From a virus (Duplodnaviria; Heunggongvirae; Uroviricota; Caudoviricetes), in the IMG/VR virus record IMGVR_UViG_2617270956_000008, positions 1 through 48,241 of that record: a stretch of 48,241 bases of DNA, one strand, 5' to 3'. Each line of letters starts with the position of its first letter. Positions within the stretch are counted from its first letter, which is position 1. A program made the position numbers and the translations under genes. Under the pieces are notes generated by a model, which saw only the letters and a program-made list of their open reading frames with translations, made no database searches and had not been told where the DNA came from. Below are positions 35,783 through 45,556 of the stretch, in pieces.

Positions 35783-36046
35783 TCACTCATCTTCAAAAGC
35801 AGAAAAACCAGCCTTAATCCCAGCTTCTTTCAGAGACGGCAACGATGTGACAAATTCATTTGCACGCAAAATAAAACCATCCGTCACAAGCCCATCCACA
35901 AAATGAATTAACGCAGCTCCACTCTTCCTTTGTTGAGACTGTAAACATTTAATACGGCAGTGGCTGACAATAGCGCCATTCTCAACGCGCACAGTATAGA
36001 GGCCATCTTCACTAAAAATTTCACGTAATTCTTCGATTTTCATCAA
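35783..36046 (-). CDS. hypothetical phage protein (87 aa)
   Basis: ORF between hokD and the DUF968-like gene. Confidence 0.45.
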   Translation of the reverse strand: MMKIEELREIFSEDGLYTVRVENGAIVSHCRIKCLQSQQRKSGAALIHFVDGLVTDGFILRANEFVTSLPSLKEAGIKAGFSAFEDE

Positions 36047-36163
36047 CAGAATCCTTCCAGATAAATAGCACTCCCCTGTTCGGGGTCCATCCCTCTTCTC
36101 CCTGCGCGCTACTTAAGTATTTTTGATTCTATTCCGGCACAATCTAAAACTTCAAACGCGTTG

Positions 36164-36263: not shown

Positions 36264-36419
36264 TTACTCCTCAGGTTCGTAAGCTGTGAAGACAGCGACC
36301 TCCGTCTGGCCGGTTCGGATTCGTACCTCGCAGAGGTCTTTCCTCGTTACCAGTGCCGTCACTATGACGGTTAAACAGATGACGATCAGGGCGATTAACA
36401 TCGCCTTTTGCTGCTTCAT
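36264..36419 (-). CDS. hokD: Hok/Gef-family type I toxin (HokD/RelF-like), 51 aa
   Basis: MKQQKAMLIALIVICLTVIVTALVTRKDLCEVRIRTGQTEVAVFTAYEPEE matches HokD/RelF as recalled; AAGGAG SD 9 nt upstream of the internal ATG. Confidence 0.85.
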   Translation of the reverse strand: MKQQKAMLIALIVICLTVIVTALVTRKDLCEVRIRTGQTEVAVFTAYEPEE

Positions 36420-36630
36420 AGCCTGCTTCTCCTTGCCTTTCGGCACGTAAGAGGCTAACCTACGTTTGTGAAGCATAGATTGGGCCTCAGATTAATGTTA
36501 AACGTCTTGCAGGACGCGTAATGTTAACTGGGGCTTTTCTCTATCTGCCGTTGGTGTTCATGCCCGAGGCAGATAGCCTCAAGCACCCGCAGCAATTCTA
36601 CTTAACTCACGTCACCTCGCCAATATAAAA

Positions 36631-40473: not shown

Positions 40474-41139
40474 TCAAACAAACCCAGCCGCTTTCCGGCG
40501 TTCATATTCCTGTTTCAGCAACTCAATTGGCGTTGGCCCCGACGGGCGTTTGGGTGCCGCCAGTTGTCGCCGGACTGGCGGAACGCTCAGGCCGTTACTA
40601 ACATGCTTTGCCCATTTCGCCAGCTGCCGTTCTGCAAGCCGTTTTAATTCCCCTTCGGTCATCTGGCGCTCAATCCCCTTTGAACGCATCTCGAGGCAAA
40701 TGTGATACAGCACAGGCTGAGACCACGGGTACTTATCACTTCCGTCATATCGCCAGGACTCATTGCGCCAGCGGCGGTACTCCTCCATCACAGCATCCAC
40801 CGTCAGACCGAATGGATTGGCTCCGCTTTCCGAAATCAGTGCCACAAACTCAGCCAGGTCCGGAGGCCATGTTTCACCCGCCCGGCAGCGGTCCATGCAC
40901 TGGCGGCAGACCTGTCGGATTTGCTGCTCAGTCATCGCGCCAATCTGTGCAATCCAGAGCTTCGAAGGTGCGGCCCCGTTCTTCTGGGTCCAGCGGTTCG
41001 AATAAACCTCCCCCATGAGTTCCCACAGCTTCCAGACCGTTTCCGTCGCTGATAAATCCGTTTTCACGTTCCCACTGCTCACGTGCTGCCCGAATTTCCT
41101 GAACTGCCCGTGATGCGGTGCCACCTGGTGCTGCTGCAT
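40474..41139 (-). CDS. replication protein P-like (helicase loader), 221 aa
   Basis: Pattern GAMTEQQIRQV...YPWSQPVLYHICLEM...TEGELKRLAERQL parallels lambda P as recalled; overlaps the O-like ORF out of frame by 212 nt. Confidence 0.55.
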   Translation of the reverse strand: MQQHQVAPHHGQFRKFGQHVSSGNVKTDLSATETVWKLWELMGEVYSNRWTQKNGAAPSKLWIAQIGAMTEQQIRQVCRQCMDRCRAGETWPPDLAEFVALISESGANPFGLTVDAVMEEYRRWRNESWRYDGSDKYPWSQPVLYHICLEMRSKGIERQMTEGELKRLAERQLAKWAKHVSNGLSVPPVRRQLAAPKRPSGPTPIELLKQEYERRKAAGFV

Positions 41140-42043
41140 GGTTTACCCCCTTGCTGACTGGTTTAACCTGCGCCCTGACGTGATTTACGTGACGGGCGAA
41201 TTTCTGCTCCCACTGAATCTGCGTAAACACTTTCCCCTCCGCTGCCCAGTAGTCCCGGAAGGCGGCAAGTTCAGCAGGTGTAAATTCTGTCTCCGGCAAA
41301 GCCATCCCCCACAACGCAGCCCGTCGTCGAAAATCCCGTGACGGATACCAGCTATCGGTCATCGGAAATTTTCCGATGGGTTCGCTCAGGCCATCCAGGA
41401 ATACAAGGGGTGCTGCCTGTAACGACAAAACTTCCTGCTCACTGGTCGGAGCACTCTCGCGTGCGTTATGTGTGGGGTTTAGATCTTTGGGTTCCTTTGG
41501 GTTCCGTGATCCGTTTTTGGGTGTCTTTGATGGAAAATTTGGGTGTCTTTGGTTATTTTCCATGCAGCTAAGAGTTCCGTTTTTGGGTCTGTTTTGTGCT
41601 GAAACATAACCATTTTCGGTACTGTTTTTATTAACAGCACCAATTTTACCCACCTTTAAAGACTCCCGTTTTTGGGTGTATTCAGGCTCGGCAACACTTT
41701 CTTCTACACCGATAAGTCGGTACACCACAATTTGCTTTGTTCTGCCTTTTCTCTCACCGGTATCAACAATTAACCCAATCTCCATCAGGTGTCGTAAGCT
41801 GTCCTGCACAGTCTTTTTGTTCAGTTCCGTTACTTCTGCCAGTGCAGATACAGACGGGTATGCACACAAATCGGCACCGCACATATCAGCAAGCCAGGTC
41901 AATACAGACTTACTGGATGAACTGCCGGTTTTCACCTTTTTAGCCCATCGTAGTGCATCGATACTCATACAAACCCCTGGCAGACATTTGTTTATCTGCA
42001 AAGTAATATTGATATTGCTGACGATACGCATGCTTGAAAGCAA
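40928..42043 (-). CDS. replication initiator O-like protein (N-terminal HTH), up to 371 aa
   Basis: Position after the YdaT-like and Cro-like genes; the true start is probably the ATG at 41968 (MSIDALRWAKK...). Confidence 0.55.
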   Translation of the reverse strand: MLSSMRIVSNINITLQINKCLPGVCMSIDALRWAKKVKTGSSSSKSVLTWLADMCGADLCAYPSVSALAEVTELNKKTVQDSLRHLMEIGLIVDTGERKGRTKQIVVYRLIGVEESVAEPEYTQKRESLKVGKIGAVNKNSTENGYVSAQNRPKNGTLSCMENNQRHPNFPSKTPKNGSRNPKEPKDLNPTHNARESAPTSEQEVLSLQAAPLVFLDGLSEPIGKFPMTDSWYPSRDFRRRAALWGMALPETEFTPAELAAFRDYWAAEGKVFTQIQWEQKFARHVNHVRAQVKPVSKGVNHAAAPGGTASRAVQEIRAAREQWERENGFISDGNGLEAVGTHGGGLFEPLDPEERGRTFEALDCTDWRDD

Positions 42044-42491
42044 TAGCTTTTTCTATAAGCTCGTCAGTCTCACGTTCCACAACAGCTGGATCCGCAAAAA
42101 GCAGCCCGGACTCCACCACATCGCCATATTCTTTGTTTAATCCGGCGATCATGTACGTAATGCTTTTTCCATCACTGATCTCACGATACAACCTGAAATC
42201 ACTAATTCGGATAGCCTCCATAATTGCCGGAATCAGCGCCGTGAATTTTTTCCGCTTATCCCTGGTGTCGATAGCTTTCCAGCGTTCGAATATCTTCACC
42301 CGGTTAACGCCCAGCGCCCGTTGATCAACCTCGCCATCATTAAACGTGACGCGTTGAACATCGATGTTCGGGCGTTCTTTCAGAGCCCAGAATGCTTCCG
42401 TGATTAATATCGTCGCTTGCTCCTGTGTCATTCCTGGTCGACATACCCAGGCATCCAGAGCCTCACAAACCTGTTCAGGGGTGATTTTCAT
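41940..42491 (-). CDS. YdaT-like (CII-like) regulator, 183 aa
   Basis: Directly downstream of the Cro-like gene; the LIPAIMEAI segment resembles Rac YdaT as recalled. Confidence 0.45.
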   Translation of the reverse strand: MKITPEQVCEALDAWVCRPGMTQEQATILITEAFWALKERPNIDVQRVTFNDGEVDQRALGVNRVKIFERWKAIDTRDKRKKFTALIPAIMEAIRISDFRLYREISDGKSITYMIAGLNKEYGDVVESGLLFADPAVVERETDELIEKAIAFKHAYRQQYQYYFADKQMSARGLYEYRCTTMG

Positions 42492-42702
42492 TGTTCAACC
42501 GCCCCGCCCGCTTTGCCTTACGATATTCGTCATAAACTTTGGGGTCGTACTGAAGTTCCCCGCCGGATGCCTCCTGTAGACGCATCGCGCGACCTTCAGG
42601 AACCAGTTTCCCCCATGCAGCAACGCTTGCCAGCCTAACTCCTGCGGCATTGGCAAGCTTTGTTTTGCTGCCAAAAAACGCTATAGCATCAATTTTCAAC
42701 AT
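42475..42702 (-). CDS. dicC: Cro-like repressor DicC, 75 aa
   Basis: FFGSKTKLANAAGVRLASVAAW HTH; divergent from dicA; close to Qin DicC as recalled. Confidence 0.8.
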   Translation of the reverse strand: MLKIDAIAFFGSKTKLANAAGVRLASVAAWGKLVPEGRAMRLQEASGGELQYDPKVYDEYRKAKRAGRLNNENHP

Positions 42703-42778
42703 ATCGAACTCCTTAGATTTTCCTAAGGAAACTAGATCGTAGAGAAACCTAAGTCAAGAAAAATTAGAATTACCTAAT
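42703..42778. promoter_or_regulatory. divergent dicC/dicA promoter-operator region with four CCT(A/T)AG motifs
   Basis: CCTTAG 42711-42716, CCTAAGG 42722-42728, CCTAAG 42748-42753, CCTAAT 42773-42778. Confidence 0.5.
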
Positions 42779-43186
42779 ATGAAAAACGAAACCTTCGGTG
42801 CTCGCCTCTTATACAGGCGTAAAAAATTAAAACTGTCTCAGGCCGCATTAGGTAAGCTGGTCAAAGTGGCTCACGTAACAATTTCTCAATGGGAAAGAGA
42901 TGAAACACAGCCAGCAGGGAAGAGATTATTCGCACTGAGCCAGGCGCTTCAGTGCTCGCCGACTTGGCTTCTTTTTGGAGATGAAGATAAGCAACCAGGC
43001 GAACCGATCCCAGATAATCAGCCAGTTAATCTGACAGAAGATCAAAAAGAGTTGCTTCAACTGTTCGACGCACTGCCTGAGTCAGAGCAAAAGGCTCTGT
43101 TGTCAGAGATGCGTGCTCGAGTTGAGAATTTCAACAAACTTTTTGAAGAACTACTCAAAGCTCGCAAAAGAAGCGCAAATAAATAA
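42779..43186 (+). CDS. dicA: immunity repressor DicA (HTH-XRE, no peptidase domain), 135 aa
   Basis: Aligns along its length with Qin DicA as recalled (…SQWERDETQPAGKRLFALSQALQCSPTWLLFGDEDKQP…MRARVENFNKLFEELLKAR). Confidence 0.9.
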   Translation: MKNETFGARLLYRRKKLKLSQAALGKLVKVAHVTISQWERDETQPAGKRLFALSQALQCSPTWLLFGDEDKQPGEPIPDNQPVNLTEDQKELLQLFDALPESEQKALLSEMRARVENFNKLFEELLKARKRSANK

Positions 43187-43287
43187 CCCCCCCTTTTTTT
43201 TTCGCCACTCTCTGTAATAAAAAGCACAAACTTTCAAATACTTGTGTTTTTTACATCAAAAAACTTAGGTTTTTCTACATAAAAAGC

Positions 43288-43317
43288 TTGACCACAATTC
43301 TTAGGTTATTCTAAATT
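43288..43317 (+). promoter_or_regulatory. putative promoter of the ydfA-dicB operon with embedded CTTAGG operator motif
   Basis: -35 TTGACC (43288-43293), 18-bp spacer containing CTTAGG (43300-43305), -10 TAAATT (43312-43317). Confidence 0.35.
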
Positions 43318-43393: not shown

Positions 43394-43549
43394 ATGGATA
43401 CTATCGATCTTGGCAACAACGAATCTCTGGTATGCGGCGTGTTTCCCAACCAGGACGGCACGTTTACCGCGATGACGTATACCAGAAGCAAAACGTTTAA
43501 AACCGAAAATGATGCCCGTCGCTGGCTGGAAAGAAACTCAGGTGAGTGA
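43394..43549 (+). CDS. ydfA: YdfA-like protein, 51 aa
   Basis: Internal ATG with GAGG SD; MDTIDLGNNESLVCGVFPNQDGTFTAMTYTRSKTFKTENDARRWLERNSGE matches Qin YdfA as recalled. Confidence 0.8.
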   Translation: MDTIDLGNNESLVCGVFPNQDGTFTAMTYTRSKTFKTENDARRWLERNSGE

Positions 43550-43550
43550 T

Positions 43551-43754
43551 ATGGATTTCGACACAATCATGGAAAGGCTTACGAAGAATACTTCGAAGAC
43601 CTTGCCGAAGGCGAAGAAGCTCTCAGCTTCAGTGAGTTTAAACAGGCGCTTTCCAGCTCGGCAAAATCTAACGGCTGATAAGCGAAGTAGCACCGCGAGG
43701 AATCAGTATGCAGAAACGAGAACCCGTCATAATCGCGCCAGACTATACCGATGA
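43551..43754 (+). CDS. YdfB-like small protein (uncertain extent)
   Basis: ATG 1 nt after the ydfA TGA (MDFDTIMERL...); the ORF overlaps the ydfC start by 47 nt, so the real stop or frame may differ. Confidence 0.3.
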   Translation: MDFDTIMERLTKNTSKTLPKAKKLSASVSLNRRFPARQNLTADKRSSTARNQYAETRTRHNRARLYR

Positions 43755-43926
43755 TGAACTTTATGAGTGGATGCGCCAGAAAATTAATGCAGCGCAGGAT
43801 CTGAAATGGGCTAATGAAGCCAGGGCTAAGCAGGCTGAAAATCTGTCCGCTCTGGAGCAGGATATCACCAATCTGGAAAAAGCAGCGGCATTAAGCATTG
43901 CCAGAATGATTACATACCCGCGTTAA
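43708..43926 (+). CDS. ydfC: YdfC-like protein, 72 aa
   Basis: ATG with GAGGA SD 6 nt upstream; MQKREPVIIAPDYTDDELYEWMRQKINAAQ... matches Qin YdfC as recalled. Confidence 0.8.
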   Translation: MQKREPVIIAPDYTDDELYEWMRQKINAAQDLKWANEARAKQAENLSALEQDITNLEKAAALSIARMITYPR

Positions 43927-44267
43927 TAGCTAACCAACGAAGCTAAGGTTGGTAATTAAGGAGTTCTCCACGGGTGAGGTGGAGTGCGTGCGCCGGACAC
44001 GGGTGAGCATCCGGCACTGACAGTTTACTGAAAGGATATTTCCCTGAAAAGTCAGACCATAACGCGAAAGCGCACGGCGAGGTAGCTGGTTCATAGATAG
44101 CCTGTCGTTAAATTTTCGTCGACCGTGCGCTTCCGGTTGTGGCAATCCGCGAAATGGCGCGGCGGTAAGTATGGCGGGGGTATTTCTTCCCCCGTTGAGG
44201 ACACCGGGTTGTCAGGTTGACCATACGCTTAAGTGACAACCCCGCTGCAACGCCCTCTGTTATCAAT

Positions 44268-44325
44268 TTTCTGGTGACGTTTGGCGGTATCAGTTCTACT
44301 CCGTGACTGCTCTGCCGCCCTTTTT
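44268..44325 (+). ncRNA. dicF: DicF small regulatory RNA
   Basis: TTTCTGGTGACGTTTGGCGGTATCAGTTCTACTCCGTGACTGCTCTGCCGCCCTTTTT nearly matches DicF as recalled; GGCGG/CCGCC terminator stem plus T-run. Confidence 0.8.
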
Positions 44326-44799
44326 AAAGTGAATTTTGTGATGCGGTGAATGCGGCTAAGCGCACGCGGAACAGTTAAAACCAAAAACAGTGTTATGGGT
44401 GGATTCTCTGTATCCGGCGTTAATTGTTAACTGGTTAACGTCACCTGGAGGCACCAGGCACCGCATCAACAAAGTTCACTTCGGTGATGAAAGGTAGAGA
44501 AAATGTTGAATGTAGCTATTGAAAACCAGAACGGGTGGAATTATAGTGCACCAGCACCTCATAAAACGGGTGCCGGGCGTGGAAACCCGAAATCATTCAC
44601 GGCGCATAACCGCGCTCAGGCGGTTTTTTTATGCGTTAAGCACAGCCACATTCGCATTATGGTGGGGCGTGCAGGGCAGCCGCAAGGCTGGCCGGGTTCC
44701 GTGATGACCGGTATTTCCACCCCTGTACGTCTCACCACCCTTATGGTCGTGGAAAACCTCGGTGGTGAGTTAATCAAATTCATCGCGGAGGCTGCCATC

Positions 44800-45357
44800 A
44801 TGGCTACTATCCTTACCCTTTCTCACCCTGACGTAACCATCGAAAATGGTCGCGCTGTCACTACGTCTGTTGCGATCGCCGAGTTCTTTGGCAAACGCCA
44901 CGAACGAGTGTTGGATAAAATTCACAATCTGGACTGTTCAGCAAAATTCACTGAGCACAATTTTGTGTTGAGCGAATACACCGACTCAACCGGGCGCAAA
45001 CTCCCAATGTACCAAATCACCAAAAACGGCTTCGTTTTCCTGGTGATGGGGTTCACAGGTAAAAAAGCCGCAACTTTCAAAGAAGCCTACATCGCTGAGT
45101 TCGATCGCATGGAGGAAGAACTGCGCCAGAATAACGCCCCGTCTCCCGACAAAATGATTCACGGGGACGGACGCACCCTGGTTATCCGTCTCGACGAACA
45201 CGGCAATATCAAATTCACTGAAACCGTTCCTGACGGCGCAATGGTCTGCACCCTGGATACCTTCCGGTTTTATCTGGAGAAACAAGGATGGACTCTTGTA
45301 AACCGGAGCGCAATTAAAAATATGACTGTGGAGCAATTGCTAAAAATTCATTGTTGA
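44800..45357 (+). CDS. Rha-family phage regulatory protein (possible antirepressor), 185 aa
   Basis: ATG with GGAGG SD 8 nt upstream; Rha-type motif RAVTTSVAIAEFFGKRHERVLDKIHNLD. The track ORF starts at 44503, but its N-terminal 99 aa look non-coding. Confidence 0.6.
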   Translation: MATILTLSHPDVTIENGRAVTTSVAIAEFFGKRHERVLDKIHNLDCSAKFTEHNFVLSEYTDSTGRKLPMYQITKNGFVFLVMGFTGKKAATFKEAYIAEFDRMEEELRQNNAPSPDKMIHGDGRTLVIRLDEHGNIKFTETVPDGAMVCTLDTFRFYLEKQGWTLVNRSAIKNMTVEQLLKIHC

Positions 45358-45367
45358 GGACGCGATA

Positions 45368-45556
45368 ATGGAAACGTCACTACCAAACGTTAATACGTCT
45401 GACGGGTGCTTTAATATTGGTGTTCTGCTCAGTAACAGGGATTTCACCGAGGATGCAATCAATATGAGAAAATATGAACCCTACCTGCTGAATGACAATT
45501 CCATACTCTCCAGAATTGCCCTTCTTAAACTCGGTATTTTCGGAGAGTGGCGATGA
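45368..45556 (+). CDS. dicB: cell-division inhibitor DicB, 62 aa
   Basis: LPNVNTSDGCFNIGV...FTEDAIN matches the N-terminal half of DicB as recalled. Confidence 0.8.
   Translation: METSLPNVNTSDGCFNIGVLLSNRDFTEDAINMRKYEPYLLNDNSILSRIALLKLGIFGEWR

What the first reader, a model, noticed from the sequence alone, without database searches (positions are those of the whole stretch)
42703..43317. DicA-type immunity switch: repressor without a protease domain and repeated CCTAAG operator motifs
The repressor is 135 aa with an HTH but no LexA/S24-like cleavage domain, so induction cannot proceed by RecA-stimulated autocleavage and probably needs an antirepressor. CCT(A/T)AG hexamers occur four times in the 76-bp dicC/dicA divergent region and twice more around the predicted ydfA-dicB promoter, consistent with one repressor controlling both.
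Basis: partly seen in the sequence, partly recalled or inferred. Interest (0 to 1): 0.4.

Follow-up and report, generated by a model that had tools for sequence, protein, structure and literature searches.

The report
DicA/DicC prophage immunity switch operators
This is the ordinary, already well-studied DicA/DicC (P22-like) immunity switch of an E. coli prophage; the repeated CCTAAG hexamers are real and are the half-sites of five 20-bp repressor-binding sites, in a variant that differs by one base from the K-12 version.

Summary
CCT(A/T)AG occurs 11 times in 48 kb and 6 of those lie in 42711-43305. The repressor is a full-length DicA-family protein (135 aa, HTH only, no S24 domain).

The hexamer is a half-site of 20-bp dyads, nnCTTAG-N6-CTAAGnn. 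There are three between dicC and dicA (O1, O2, O3) and two at the ydfA-dicF-dicB promoter (OL-A, OL-B). The layout matches the P22 immC operators and K-12 Oc/Om/Oa.

Across 42 distinct DicA alleles, the base before TTAG tracks the DicA HTH. It is C with "SQ(A/S)A" helix 2, as in this window, and G with "TQR" as in K-12. It does not track DicC. This window is therefore a heteroimmune DicA allele whose repressor reads both promoters.

The antirepressor idea is established for K-12 DicA, whose antirepressor is Rem. A Rem homolog (72% identity) lies at 35783-36046. Its promoter has no LexA box, so the "LexA-controlled antirepressor" part is not supported. The only strong LexA-like box sits inside the O-like replication gene, among iterons, and is unexplained.

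Verdict: a new member of a known kind, low interest. Repressor binding and induction are inferred from sequence and homologs, not measured.

The parts
42475..42702 (-). dicC-like Cro gene (75 aa)
   Evidence: ORF list. Pfam P22_Cro E 2.5e-13. NCBIfam DicC 167.4 bits. 84% identical to K-12 DicC.
42710..42729 (.). O1, TCCTTAG-ATTTTC-CTAAGGA: a perfect 7-6-7 dyad, the positional homolog of K-12 Oc. It lies over the predicted start region of the dicC transcript.
   Evidence: Sequence. Exact TTAG-N6-CTAA and CTTAG-N6-CTAAG match. Found at -69 from the dicA ATG in all 42 alleles. K-12 Oc TTGTTAGTCATAACTAACAA binds DicA in vivo (PMC3441716).
42729..42757 (-). Predicted dicC promoter: -35 TTGACT (42757-42752), 17-nt spacer, -10 TAGTTT (42734-42729).
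   Evidence: Read from the sequence. Same arrangement as the K-12 TTGACT-17-TATCTT next to Oc (PMC3441716). Inference: this promoter was below the threshold of the scan.
42736..42755 (.). O2, ATCGTAG-AGAAAC-CTAAGTC: one consensus half and one near-consensus half. It overlaps the -35 and spacer of the dicC promoter. Homolog of P22 OR2 and K-12 Om.
   Evidence: 94% complementary over 16 nt to OL-A (I2). P22 OR2 ACTAAAGGAATCTTTAGTcaag has the same -35 overlap.
42761..42780 (.). O3, AAATTAG-AATTAC-CTAATAT: a weak dyad with ATTAG halves. It covers the predicted dicA -10 (TAGAAT, 42765-42770) and abuts or overlaps the dicA ATG. Homolog of P22 OR3 and K-12 Oa.
   Evidence: Exact TTAG-N6-CTAA match. 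88% complementary over 17 nt to OL-B (I3). Conserved at -18/-19 in nearly all alleles. P22 OR3 abuts the c2 ATG in the same way.
42779..43186 (+). dicA-like repressor gene (135 aa): an N-terminal P22-C2-like HTH domain and a helical C-terminal domain, with no S24 protease.
   Evidence: NCBIfam DicA 241.6 bits over the full length. PDB P22 C2 N-terminal domain E 1e-21. Pfam finds HTH families only. 63% identical to K-12 DicA. Low-confidence all-helical model.
43262..43281 (.). OL-A, AACTTAG-GTTTTT-CTACATA, just upstream of the -35 of the ydfA-dicB promoter.
   Evidence: Direct repeat with OL-B at 36-bp spacing (D1). Conserved position and half-site class across alleles.
43288..43317 (+). dicBp-like (PL-like) promoter, TTGACC-18-TAAATT.
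   Evidence: Promoter scan. Aligns with K-12 TTGACC-17-TAATCT upstream of ydfA. dicBp is repressed by DicA in K-12 (PMC10448788).
43298..43317 (.). OL-B, TTCTTAG-GTTATT-CTAAATT. It fills the spacer and the -10 of the dicBp-like promoter.
   Evidence: Exact TTAG-N6-CTAA match..
43394..45556 (+). Cargo of the repressed operon: ydfA (43394-43549), frameshifted ydfB, ydfC (43708-43926), DicF RNA (44269-44320), an inserted isrK/C4 RNA plus Rha-family gene module (44554-45357), and dicB (45368-45556).
   Evidence: Pfam DUF1391. RefSeq annotation of an identical locus. Rfam DicF 72.4, isrK 67.7 and C4 81.9 bits. NCBIfam DicB and Rha.
35783..36046 (-). rem homolog (87 aa), the candidate antirepressor of this DicA. 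It has its own TTGAAG-17-TAGAAT promoter and no LexA box.
   Evidence: 72% identical to K-12 Rem. The upstream region is 96% identical to K-12. Sequence. Rem derepresses dicBp 165-fold in K-12 (PMC10448788).

Best explanation
The region is the immunity switch (immC) of an E. coli lambdoid prophage of the DicA/DicC, P22-like type.

Operators. A dimeric 135-aa DicA-family repressor is predicted to bind 20-bp dyads with consensus nnCTTAG-N6-CTAAGnn. O1 and O2 overlap the start site, -10, spacer and -35 of the leftward dicC (cro-like) promoter. O3 overlaps the -10 and start codon of dicA itself, giving autoregulation; the dicA mRNA is probably leaderless or nearly so. OL-A and OL-B flank the -35 and cover the spacer and -10 of the rightward promoter that drives ydfA-ydfC-DicF-(isrK/C4/Rha)-dicB. 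One repressor therefore shuts both early promoters. DicC, the Cro analogue, binds the shared TTAG...CTAA core and shuts off dicA when the switch flips.

Specificity. Immunity specificity lies in the base before TTAG: C here, G in K-12 Qin. DicA reads that base and DicC does not. The likely determinant lies outside the recognition helix; the candidate is helix-2 residue 22, Ala or Ser in this class against Arg in the K-12 class.

Induction. The repressor has no S24 domain, so it cannot self-cleave. Derepression is expected through the Rem-type antirepressor encoded 6.7 kb away, and/or through spontaneous or stress-driven flipping as in K-12.

Shown here: the sites, their enrichment, their conservation, their co-variation with the HTH, and the family memberships. 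Inferred: actual binding, occupancy order, promoter positions, the leaderless start, and the action of Rem on this allele.
For: Enrichment:
- Six of 11 CCTWAG matches lie in 1.3% of the window (P 2e-9).
- Three of 4 exact TTAG-N6-CTAA matches, and all three CTTAG-N6-CTAAG matches with at most one mismatch, are here.
- There are 5 dyads against 0.19 expected in AT-matched shuffles of the two non-coding stretches (0 of 5000 shuffles reach 5).
- An unbiased repeat search pairs O2 with OL-A (94% over 16 nt), O3 with OL-B (88% over 17 nt) and OL-A with OL-B.

Family membership: DicA, DicC and DicB NCBIfam matches are all above their cut-offs. The N-terminal domain aligns to P22 C2 residues 2-69 at E 1e-21.

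Comparison with K-12 and P22:
- K-12 Oc, TTGTTAG-TCATAA-CTAACAA, has the same 7-6-7 geometry and position, and DicA binds it in vivo (PMC3441716).
- P22-type OR1/OR2/OR3, read directly, have the same layout. OR2 overlaps the TTGACT -35 and OR3 abuts the repressor ATG.
- K-12 DicC ChIP-seq shows sites on both sides of dicA and a palindromic motif, TT(A/C/T)G...C(G/A/T)AA (PMC11430063).

Co-variation across 42 unique alleles, tallied by helix-2 start over all core-matching dyads in each locus:
- Operators sit at fixed positions.
- SQ(A/S)A alleles have C before TTAG: 110 C against 1 G at OR, 58 C against 3 G at OL.
- TQR alleles have G there: 50 G against 0 C.
- DicA HTH identity tracks operator class: 92-96% within the class against 54-71% across classes.
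- DicC does not track it: 93-95% identical to G-class loci.
- Operator core positions are the least variable in the intergenic region: 2.8% non-consensus, against 6.9% in the spacers and 16.6% elsewhere.

Induction: the Rem homolog is 72% identical to K-12 Rem. Rem derepresses K-12 dicBp 165-fold (PMC10448788).
Against: - No binding data exist for this allele.
- In K-12, DicA bound Oc but not Om or Oa in an in vivo assay (PMC3441716, data not shown there). O2 and O3 may therefore be weak DicA sites or DicC-only sites.
- The CCTAAG of O2 is also conserved in loci whose O1 and OL sites are GTTAG-type. Its conservation partly reflects the -35 of the dicC promoter.
- The allele counts are not phylogenetically independent. 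The C/G split may represent only one or two evolutionary events.
- The dicA and dicC promoters were not detected by the consensus scan.
- It is untested whether Rem acts on this DicA, whose C-terminal domain is 67% identical to K-12's.
- The prophage carries several pseudogenes (int, ydfB, DUF977), so the switch may govern only cargo genes.
Confidence: 0.8

Rival explanations
1. One reading: induction is wired to the SOS response through a LexA-box-controlled antirepressor, as in Gifsy prophages, phage 186 Tum or N15 AntC.
For: - The repressor is of the short, non-cleavable class that Lemire et al. linked to LexA-controlled antirepressors, with DicA named as a member (PMC3121763).
- A small antirepressor homolog (rem) lies outside the immunity region.
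- One strong LexA-like box exists in the window at 41620-41639 (score 20.5, next best 10.0).
Against: - The rem promoter (TTGAAG-17-TAGAAT) has no LexA box and is 96% identical to K-12's.
- In K-12, spontaneous and urea-induced derepression are independent of recA and rem, and the inducer of Rem is unknown (PMC10448788).
- The only LexA-like box is inside the O-like replication gene, not in front of any antirepressor-like ORF.
- No dinI-, tum- or gfoA-like gene is annotated in the identical RefSeq prophage.
Confidence: 0.1
2. The dyads are mainly DicC (Cro) sites. DicA uses only O1, and perhaps OL-B, as K-12 data for Om and Oa suggest. On this view the 'three plus two operators for one repressor' picture over-reads the repeats.
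For: [quoted passage not shown]
- The DicC ChIP motif is the shared core TTNG...CNAA (PMC11430063).
- O3 has ATTAG rather than CTTAG halves, and OL-A and O2 each have one degenerate half.
Against: - The DicA-specific base (C here) is present in O1 (both halves), O2, OL-A and OL-B. In G-class alleles it switches to G in O1 and in both OL sites, which is not expected if only O1 mattered to DicA.
- Lambdoid repressors commonly fill weak sites cooperatively, and a single-site in vivo assay would miss that.
Confidence: 0.25
3. The hexamer repeats are a by-product of AT-rich promoter DNA or of shared ancestry, with no operator function.
For: The two non-coding stretches are AT-rich (GC 0.32 and 0.39, against 0.48 for the window). 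The whole intergenic region is well conserved among close relatives.
Against: - AT-matched shuffles give 0.19 dyads against 5 observed (0 of 5000 reach 5).
- The hexamer is under-represented elsewhere in the window.
- Half-site identity co-varies with the repressor HTH at both OR and OL.
- The homologous K-12 site is a genetically proven DicA operator (PMC3441716).
Confidence: 0.03

Closest known systems
E. coli K-12 Qin prophage dicC-dicA-dicBp locus (DicA, DicC, Oc/Om/Oa, Rem)
   Same: - Same gene order: dicC, dicA, ydfA, ydfB, ydfC, dicF, dicB.
- Both repressors are 135 aa.
- Same 20-bp 7-6-7 dyads at the same positions relative to the promoters and the dicA ATG.
- Same promoter hexamers: TTGACT for dicC and TTGACC for dicBp.
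- A Rem homolog next to hokD.

   Different: - DicA is only 63% identical overall and 54% in the HTH.
- The half-site is CTTAG instead of GTTAG, so the two are predicted to be heteroimmune.
- An isrK/C4/Rha module is inserted between dicF and dicB.
- The prophage still carries replication, lysis and morphogenesis genes, whereas Qin is heavily deleted.

Phage P22 immC (C2 repressor, Cro, OR1-3 / OL)
   Same: - The N-terminal domain aligns to P22 C2 over residues 2-69 at E 1e-21.
- There are three operators between the divergent genes, with OR2 over the TTGACT -35 and OR3 abutting the repressor ATG.
- Half-site tetrads are 10 bp apart: TTAA-N6-TTAA in P22 and TTAG-N6-CTAA here.
- The Cro protein belongs to the P22_Cro family.

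   Different: - P22 C2 has a C-terminal S24 autocleavage domain and is RecA-inducible. This repressor has a ~50-residue helical C-terminal domain instead.
- The half-site is CCTTAG(A/G) against ATTTAAG in P22.

Salmonella Gifsy-1/-2/-3 repressors (GfoR, GtgR, GfhR) with the antirepressors GfoA, GftA and GfhA
   Same: Short HTH repressors that cannot self-cleave and are inactivated by small antirepressors encoded outside the immunity region. DicA is named as a member of this group (PMC3121763).
   Different: Gifsy antirepressor genes sit behind a LexA box next to a dinI homolog. No such arrangement exists in this window.

Membership tests
DicA-family prophage repressor (NCBIfam NF007257) | Full-length match to the DicA model above its curated cut-off | tested here: met
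   241.6 bits against a cut-off of 101, covering residues 1-135 of 135. 63% identical to K-12 DicA.
DicA-family prophage repressor (NCBIfam NF007257) | N-terminal P22-C2-like HTH, short length, no S24 autocleavage domain | tested here: met
   HTH_3 E 4e-14, and no Peptidase_S24 match at E<=10. P22 C2 N-terminal domain E 1e-21. An Ala46-Gly47 pair exists, but it lies inside the HTH domain and there is no catalytic domain.
DicA-family prophage repressor (NCBIfam NF007257) | Divergent DicC (P22_Cro-type) partner and a downstream DicA-repressed promoter driving ydfABC-dicF-dicB | tested here: met
   DicC 167.4 bits. ydfA, ydfC, DicF and dicB identified. The promoter TTGACC-18-TAAATT is overlapped by OL-B. 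Repression itself was not tested.
DicA-family prophage repressor (NCBIfam NF007257) | Binds a 20-bp inverted repeat (Oc) at the dicC promoter | not testable with these tools
   The sequence homolog O1 is present at the same position with the same geometry. Binding needs EMSA or footprinting.
LexA / lambda CI-type self-cleaving repressors (Peptidase S24) | C-terminal S24 domain with a Ser-Lys dyad and a cleavable Ala-Gly in the linker | tested here: not met
   No S24 hit. The C-terminal 50 residues are predicted all-helical, from a low-confidence model.
Gifsy/186-type SOS circuit (LexA-controlled antirepressor) | Small antirepressor gene outside the immunity region | tested here: met
   The rem homolog at 35783-36046 is 72% identical to the experimentally validated K-12 Rem (PMC10448788).
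Gifsy/186-type SOS circuit (LexA-controlled antirepressor) | LexA box overlapping the antirepressor promoter | tested here: not met
   A PWM scan gives one site at or above 12.9 bits (the lowest score among the 20 training sites) in the window, at 41620-41639 inside the O-like gene. Nothing was found upstream of rem. The PWM was built from LexA sites recalled from memory.
P22/lambdoid immC operator architecture | Three dyad operators between divergent repressor and cro genes overlapping both promoters, with related operators at PL | tested here: met
   O1, O2 and O3 lie 26 and 25 bp apart. OL-A and OL-B lie 36 bp apart. The layout was compared with the P22-type OR read directly. A third OL site was not found.

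The most novel reading that the evidence does not exclude
Two modestly novel readings remain open.

(a) Heteroimmunity inside the DicA family may be set by a helix-2 residue, not by the recognition helix. Position 22 is Ala or Ser where the operator has C and Arg where it has G. Alleles with an identical recognition helix (AHVTISQWE) use different operators, and the Cro partner (DicC) is blind to that base.

(b) SOS input to this non-cleavable-repressor prophage may come from the conserved LexA-like box embedded among the iterons of the O-like replication gene (41620-41639), acting as a second lock on replication, rather than through an antirepressor promoter.

The probability given is for at least one of the two being true. 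Reading (a) is the likelier.
Probability: 0.35. Interest if true: 0.35.

Novelty: new member of a known kind. Interest (0 to 1): 0.15.

Why it matters
The practical value is small.

- It gives a concrete operator map and a predicted immunity class (CTTAG against GTTAG) for a DicA allele common in E. coli. The region matches thousands of genomes, and 229 of them carry the whole 1.3-kb stretch.
- This DicA allele also sits in the PPompW prophages listed with, or recorded jointly with, Stx2a-converting phages.
- The C/G co-variation offers a clean test of how P22-type HTH repressors diverge in specificity.

It does not change the understanding of prophage induction.

Tried and rejected
- **LexA box at an antirepressor promoter.** I looked with the pattern CTGT-N8-ACAG and with a PWM. 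Nothing lies at rem. The one strong site is intragenic in the O-like gene. It is absent from the 11 genome loci and from about half of the 80 IMG/VR loci, and conserved at the same place in the other 42.
- **Rha-family protein as a Rem-like fusion.** A weak PHROG hit (phrog_340, E 4.5e-6) suggested this. Direct BLASTP shows no similarity (E 0.6), so I dropped it.
- **Extra DicA operators elsewhere in the prophage.** I searched near rem, the C4/Rha module and the late genes. No site with at most one mismatch exists outside the finding. The lone exact TTAG-N6-CTAA at 1007 lies in an unrelated element to the left of the prophage.
- **K-12-type GTTAG dyads.** They are not enriched here.
- **The original 1986 and 1988 Bejar/Cam papers.** They are not held in the library.
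- **Single-sequence AlphaFold model.** Confidence was too low (pLDDT 58) to justify a fold search.
- **Large protein databases.** I did not query them, because family assignment was already unambiguous.

Full report
**What is there.** The window is E. coli DNA. The 1.3 kb around the finding is 100% identical to three RefSeq chromosomes, and parts of it match 3,878 of 5,426 complete genomes.

In the identical record the region lies in a prophage next to tRNA-Ser and mtfA. That prophage has lambdoid early genes, myovirus-type tail genes and several pseudogenes.

The local gene order is:
- a YdaT/CII-like gene and dicC (42475-42702, minus strand);
- a 76-bp gap;
- dicA (42779-43186, plus strand);
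- about 200 bp of non-coding DNA;
- ydfA (43394-43549), a frameshifted ydfB and ydfC (43708-43926);
- DicF RNA (44269-44320);
- an inserted isrK/C4-RNA plus Rha-family gene module;
- dicB (45368-45556).

NCBIfam places the two regulators in the DicA and DicC families. DicA scores 241.6 bits against a cut-off of 101, over its full length. DicC scores 167.4 against 130.

**Checking the observation.** CCT(A/T)AG is rare in the window: 11 matches on both strands against 27.9 expected.
- The clustering is far beyond chance: P is about 2e-9, or 8e-8 with the overlapping pair counted once.
- The repressor is 135 aa. Pfam finds only HTH families, and no Peptidase_S24 even at E<=10.

**What the hexamers are.** Read in context, they are half-sites of 20-bp inverted repeats with 7-6-7 geometry:

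| Site | Coordinates | Sequence |
|---|---|---|
| O1 | 42710-42729 | TCCTTAG ATTTTC CTAAGGA (perfect dyad) |
| O2 | 42736-42755 | ATCGTAG AGAAAC CTAAGTC |
| O3 | 42761-42780 | AAATTAG AATTAC CTAATAT |
| OL-A | 43262-43281 | AACTTAG GTTTTT CTACATA |
| OL-B | 43298-43317 | TTCTTAG GTTATT CTAAATT |

Statistical support:
- The core TTAG-N6-CTAA occurs exactly four times in 48 kb (0.42 expected), and three of those are here.
- All three CTTAG-N6-CTAAG matches with at most one mismatch are here.
- Shuffling only the two AT-rich non-coding stretches gives 0.19 such dyads against five observed (0 of 5000 shuffles reach five).
- An unbiased repeat search independently pairs O2 with OL-A (94% over 16 nt), O3 with OL-B (88% over 17 nt) and OL-A with OL-B.

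**Relation to promoters.** Only the first of these promoters was detected by the scan; the other two are read from the sequence and are inferences.
- OL-B fills the spacer and -10 of the one promoter the scan detects, TTGACC-18-TAAATT at 43288-43317. OL-A lies just upstream of its -35.
- On the minus strand, TTGACT (42757-42752), a 17-nt spacer and TAGTTT (42734-42729) form a dicC promoter. Its -35 and spacer are covered by O2, and its start region by O1.
- A TAGAAT at 42765-42770 sits 8 nt before the dicA ATG and has no Shine-Dalgarno sequence. It lies inside O3, which suggests a nearly leaderless, autoregulated dicA transcript.

**Comparison with K-12 and P22.**
- The K-12 Qin sequence has the same layout. 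Oc is TTGTTAG TCATAA CTAACAA next to TTGACT-17-TATCTT. Oa is GATTTAG CATTAG CTAACTA and runs into the dicA ATG. Two dyads (ATGTTAG...) lie at TTGACC-17-TAATCT upstream of ydfA.
- Yun et al. showed genetically that DicA binds Oc, represses dicC and activates dicA. In their assay it did not bind Om or Oa (PMC3441716).
- K-12 DicC ChIP-seq shows its strongest binding on both sides of dicA and a palindromic motif, TT(A/C/T)G...C(G/A/T)AA (PMC11430063). That motif matches the shared core found here.
- The N-terminal domain aligns to P22 C2 residues 2-69 at E 1e-21.
- OR read directly from a P22-immC phage has ATTAAAGAACACTTAAAT, ACTAAAGGAATCTTTAGT (overlapping the TTGACT -35) and ATTTAAGATGACTTAACT abutting the c2 ATG. 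This is the same architecture.
- The P22 18-bp site corresponds to positions 2-19 of the 20-bp DicA site. PMC4267663 gives the contacted bases as 2-7 and 12-17.

**Comparative test.** I collected 11 loci from GTDB genomes and 80 from IMG/VR. Together with K-12 (the window's own allele recurs among the IMG/VR loci) these give 42 distinct combinations of DicA N-terminal domain and upstream region.
- Operators sit at fixed positions: O1 at -69 and O3 at -18/-19 in nearly all alleles, O2 at -43 in most C-class alleles, and OL-A and OL-B 36 bp apart.
- Tallied over all core-matching dyads in each locus, the base preceding TTAG splits cleanly by the start of helix 2. SQ(A/S)A alleles, including the window, have C: 110 C against 1 G at OR, and 58 C against 3 G at OL. 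TQR alleles (K-12, E. ruysiae, E. albertii, Citrobacter, Buttiauxella, Yersinia) have G: 50 G against 0 C.
- DicA HTH identity to the window tracks this class. It is 92-96% for the Pantoea and Enterobacter C-class loci that are only 74% identical overall, and 54-71% for G-class loci.
- DicC does not track it. The window's DicC is 93-95% identical to DicC of the G-class loci L006 and L007, but only 66-68% identical to that of the C-class loci L003 and L004.
- The TQRE group shares the window's recognition helix (AHVTISQWE) yet uses G-type operators. The determinant is therefore outside helix 3. Helix-2 residue 22 (Ala or Ser against Arg) is the obvious candidate, but this is an inference.
- Within the window's class, operator core positions are the least variable part of the intergenic region: 2.8% non-consensus, against 6.9% in the spacers and 16.6% elsewhere.
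- Two caveats apply. The alleles are not independent, so the C/G split may reflect few evolutionary events. The CCTAAG of O2 is also kept in G-class loci, where it overlaps the -35, so that copy is weaker evidence.

**Induction.**
- DicA is shorter than P22 C2 and lacks the cleavage apparatus.
- It belongs with the Gifsy repressors, which are inactivated by small antirepressors (PMC3121763).
- In K-12 the Qin protein Rem derepresses dicBp 165-fold (PMC10448788).

The window encodes a Rem homolog (72% identity) at 35783-36046, next to hokD/sok as in K-12.
- Its upstream region is 96% identical to K-12's. It carries TTGAAG-17-TAGAAT and has no LexA box.
- A PWM scan, built from LexA sites recalled from memory, finds one strong site in the whole window: TACTGTTTTTATTAACAGCA at 41620-41639. 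It scores 20.5 against a next best of 10.0, and 1 of 200 shuffles reaches 20.
- That site lies inside the O-like replication gene, between iteron-like repeats. It is not in front of any antirepressor gene.
- It is conserved at the same place, with CTGT and ACAG intact, in 42 of 80 IMG/VR loci. It is also coding sequence, so its meaning is open.

The Gifsy-style "LexA-controlled antirepressor" is therefore not supported here. K-12 work also shows rem- and recA-independent flipping of the switch, spontaneously and with urea or heat (PMC10448788).

**Verdict.** It belongs to a thoroughly studied system, the DicA/DicC, P22-like immunity region. What is new is the operator map and the predicted CTTAG immunity class of this allele, plus a tidy co-variation that points to a helix-2 specificity determinant. 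Nothing was measured: binding, occupancy order, promoter starts and Rem sensitivity are all inferred. Interest is low (0.15). Novelty: a new member of a known kind.

Noticed in passing
window 41620-41639 (inside the O-like gene 40928-41968, minus strand): A single strong LexA-box-like sequence, TACTGTTTTTATTAACAGCA (PWM 20.5; next best in 48 kb is 10.0). It lies between iteron-like repeats CCGTTTTTGGGT at 41504-41682, which probably mark the prophage origin. It is conserved at the same position, with CTGT and ACAG intact, in 42 of 80 related IMG/VR loci. It is also coding sequence (AVNKNST), so whether it has a function is unknown.
   Followed up: partly
window 44554-45357: Rfam finds isrK (44554-44630) and C4 antisense RNA (44655-44742) directly upstream of a Rha-family, anti-repressor-like ORF. 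The annotated ORF is 44503-45357. The likely true start is ATG 44800, which has a GGAGG Shine-Dalgarno sequence. This looks like a Gifsy-1 isrK-anrP or P1 immI-like module inserted in the DicA-controlled operon between dicF and dicB. The 'Ash' Pfam match covers the RNA-coding stretch.
   Followed up: partly
window 44390-44473 and 45368-45556: A partial dicB pseudogene precedes the inserted isrK/C4/Rha module and an intact dicB follows it. This suggests the module inserted with, or caused, a duplication of the dicB 5' end.
   Followed up: no
window 43551-43680: ydfB is frameshifted relative to K-12. The reading frame changes after MDFDTIME. The identical RefSeq locus annotates it as a frameshifted pseudogene.
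   Followed up: yes
window 36124-36140 (minus strand), spacer of the rem promoter: In a region otherwise 96% identical to K-12, four of the differences cluster in the promoter spacer and create TTTTAGATT. This resembles the left half of O1 (CTTAGATT), but there is no right half. It could be chance or a weak DicA half-site.
   Followed up: no
window 36414-36588: A sok antisense RNA (Rfam 113 bits) with hokD lies next to rem, the same neighbourhood as in K-12 Qin.
   Followed up: no
L006 / L007 (E. ruysiae, E. albertii) compared with the window: The conservation pattern is mosaic. DicC is 93-95% identical to the window's, and O3 and the right half of O2 are nearly identical. O1, the OL sites and the DicA HTH belong to the other specificity class. 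This suggests that repressor and operators co-evolved or were replaced inside an otherwise shared immunity region.
   Followed up: partly
window 1-~9000: The left end of the window is a different element: RepL, H-NS-like proteins and a restriction endonuclease in the identical RefSeq record. It holds the only exact TTAG-N6-CTAA match outside the finding (1007-1020).
   Followed up: no
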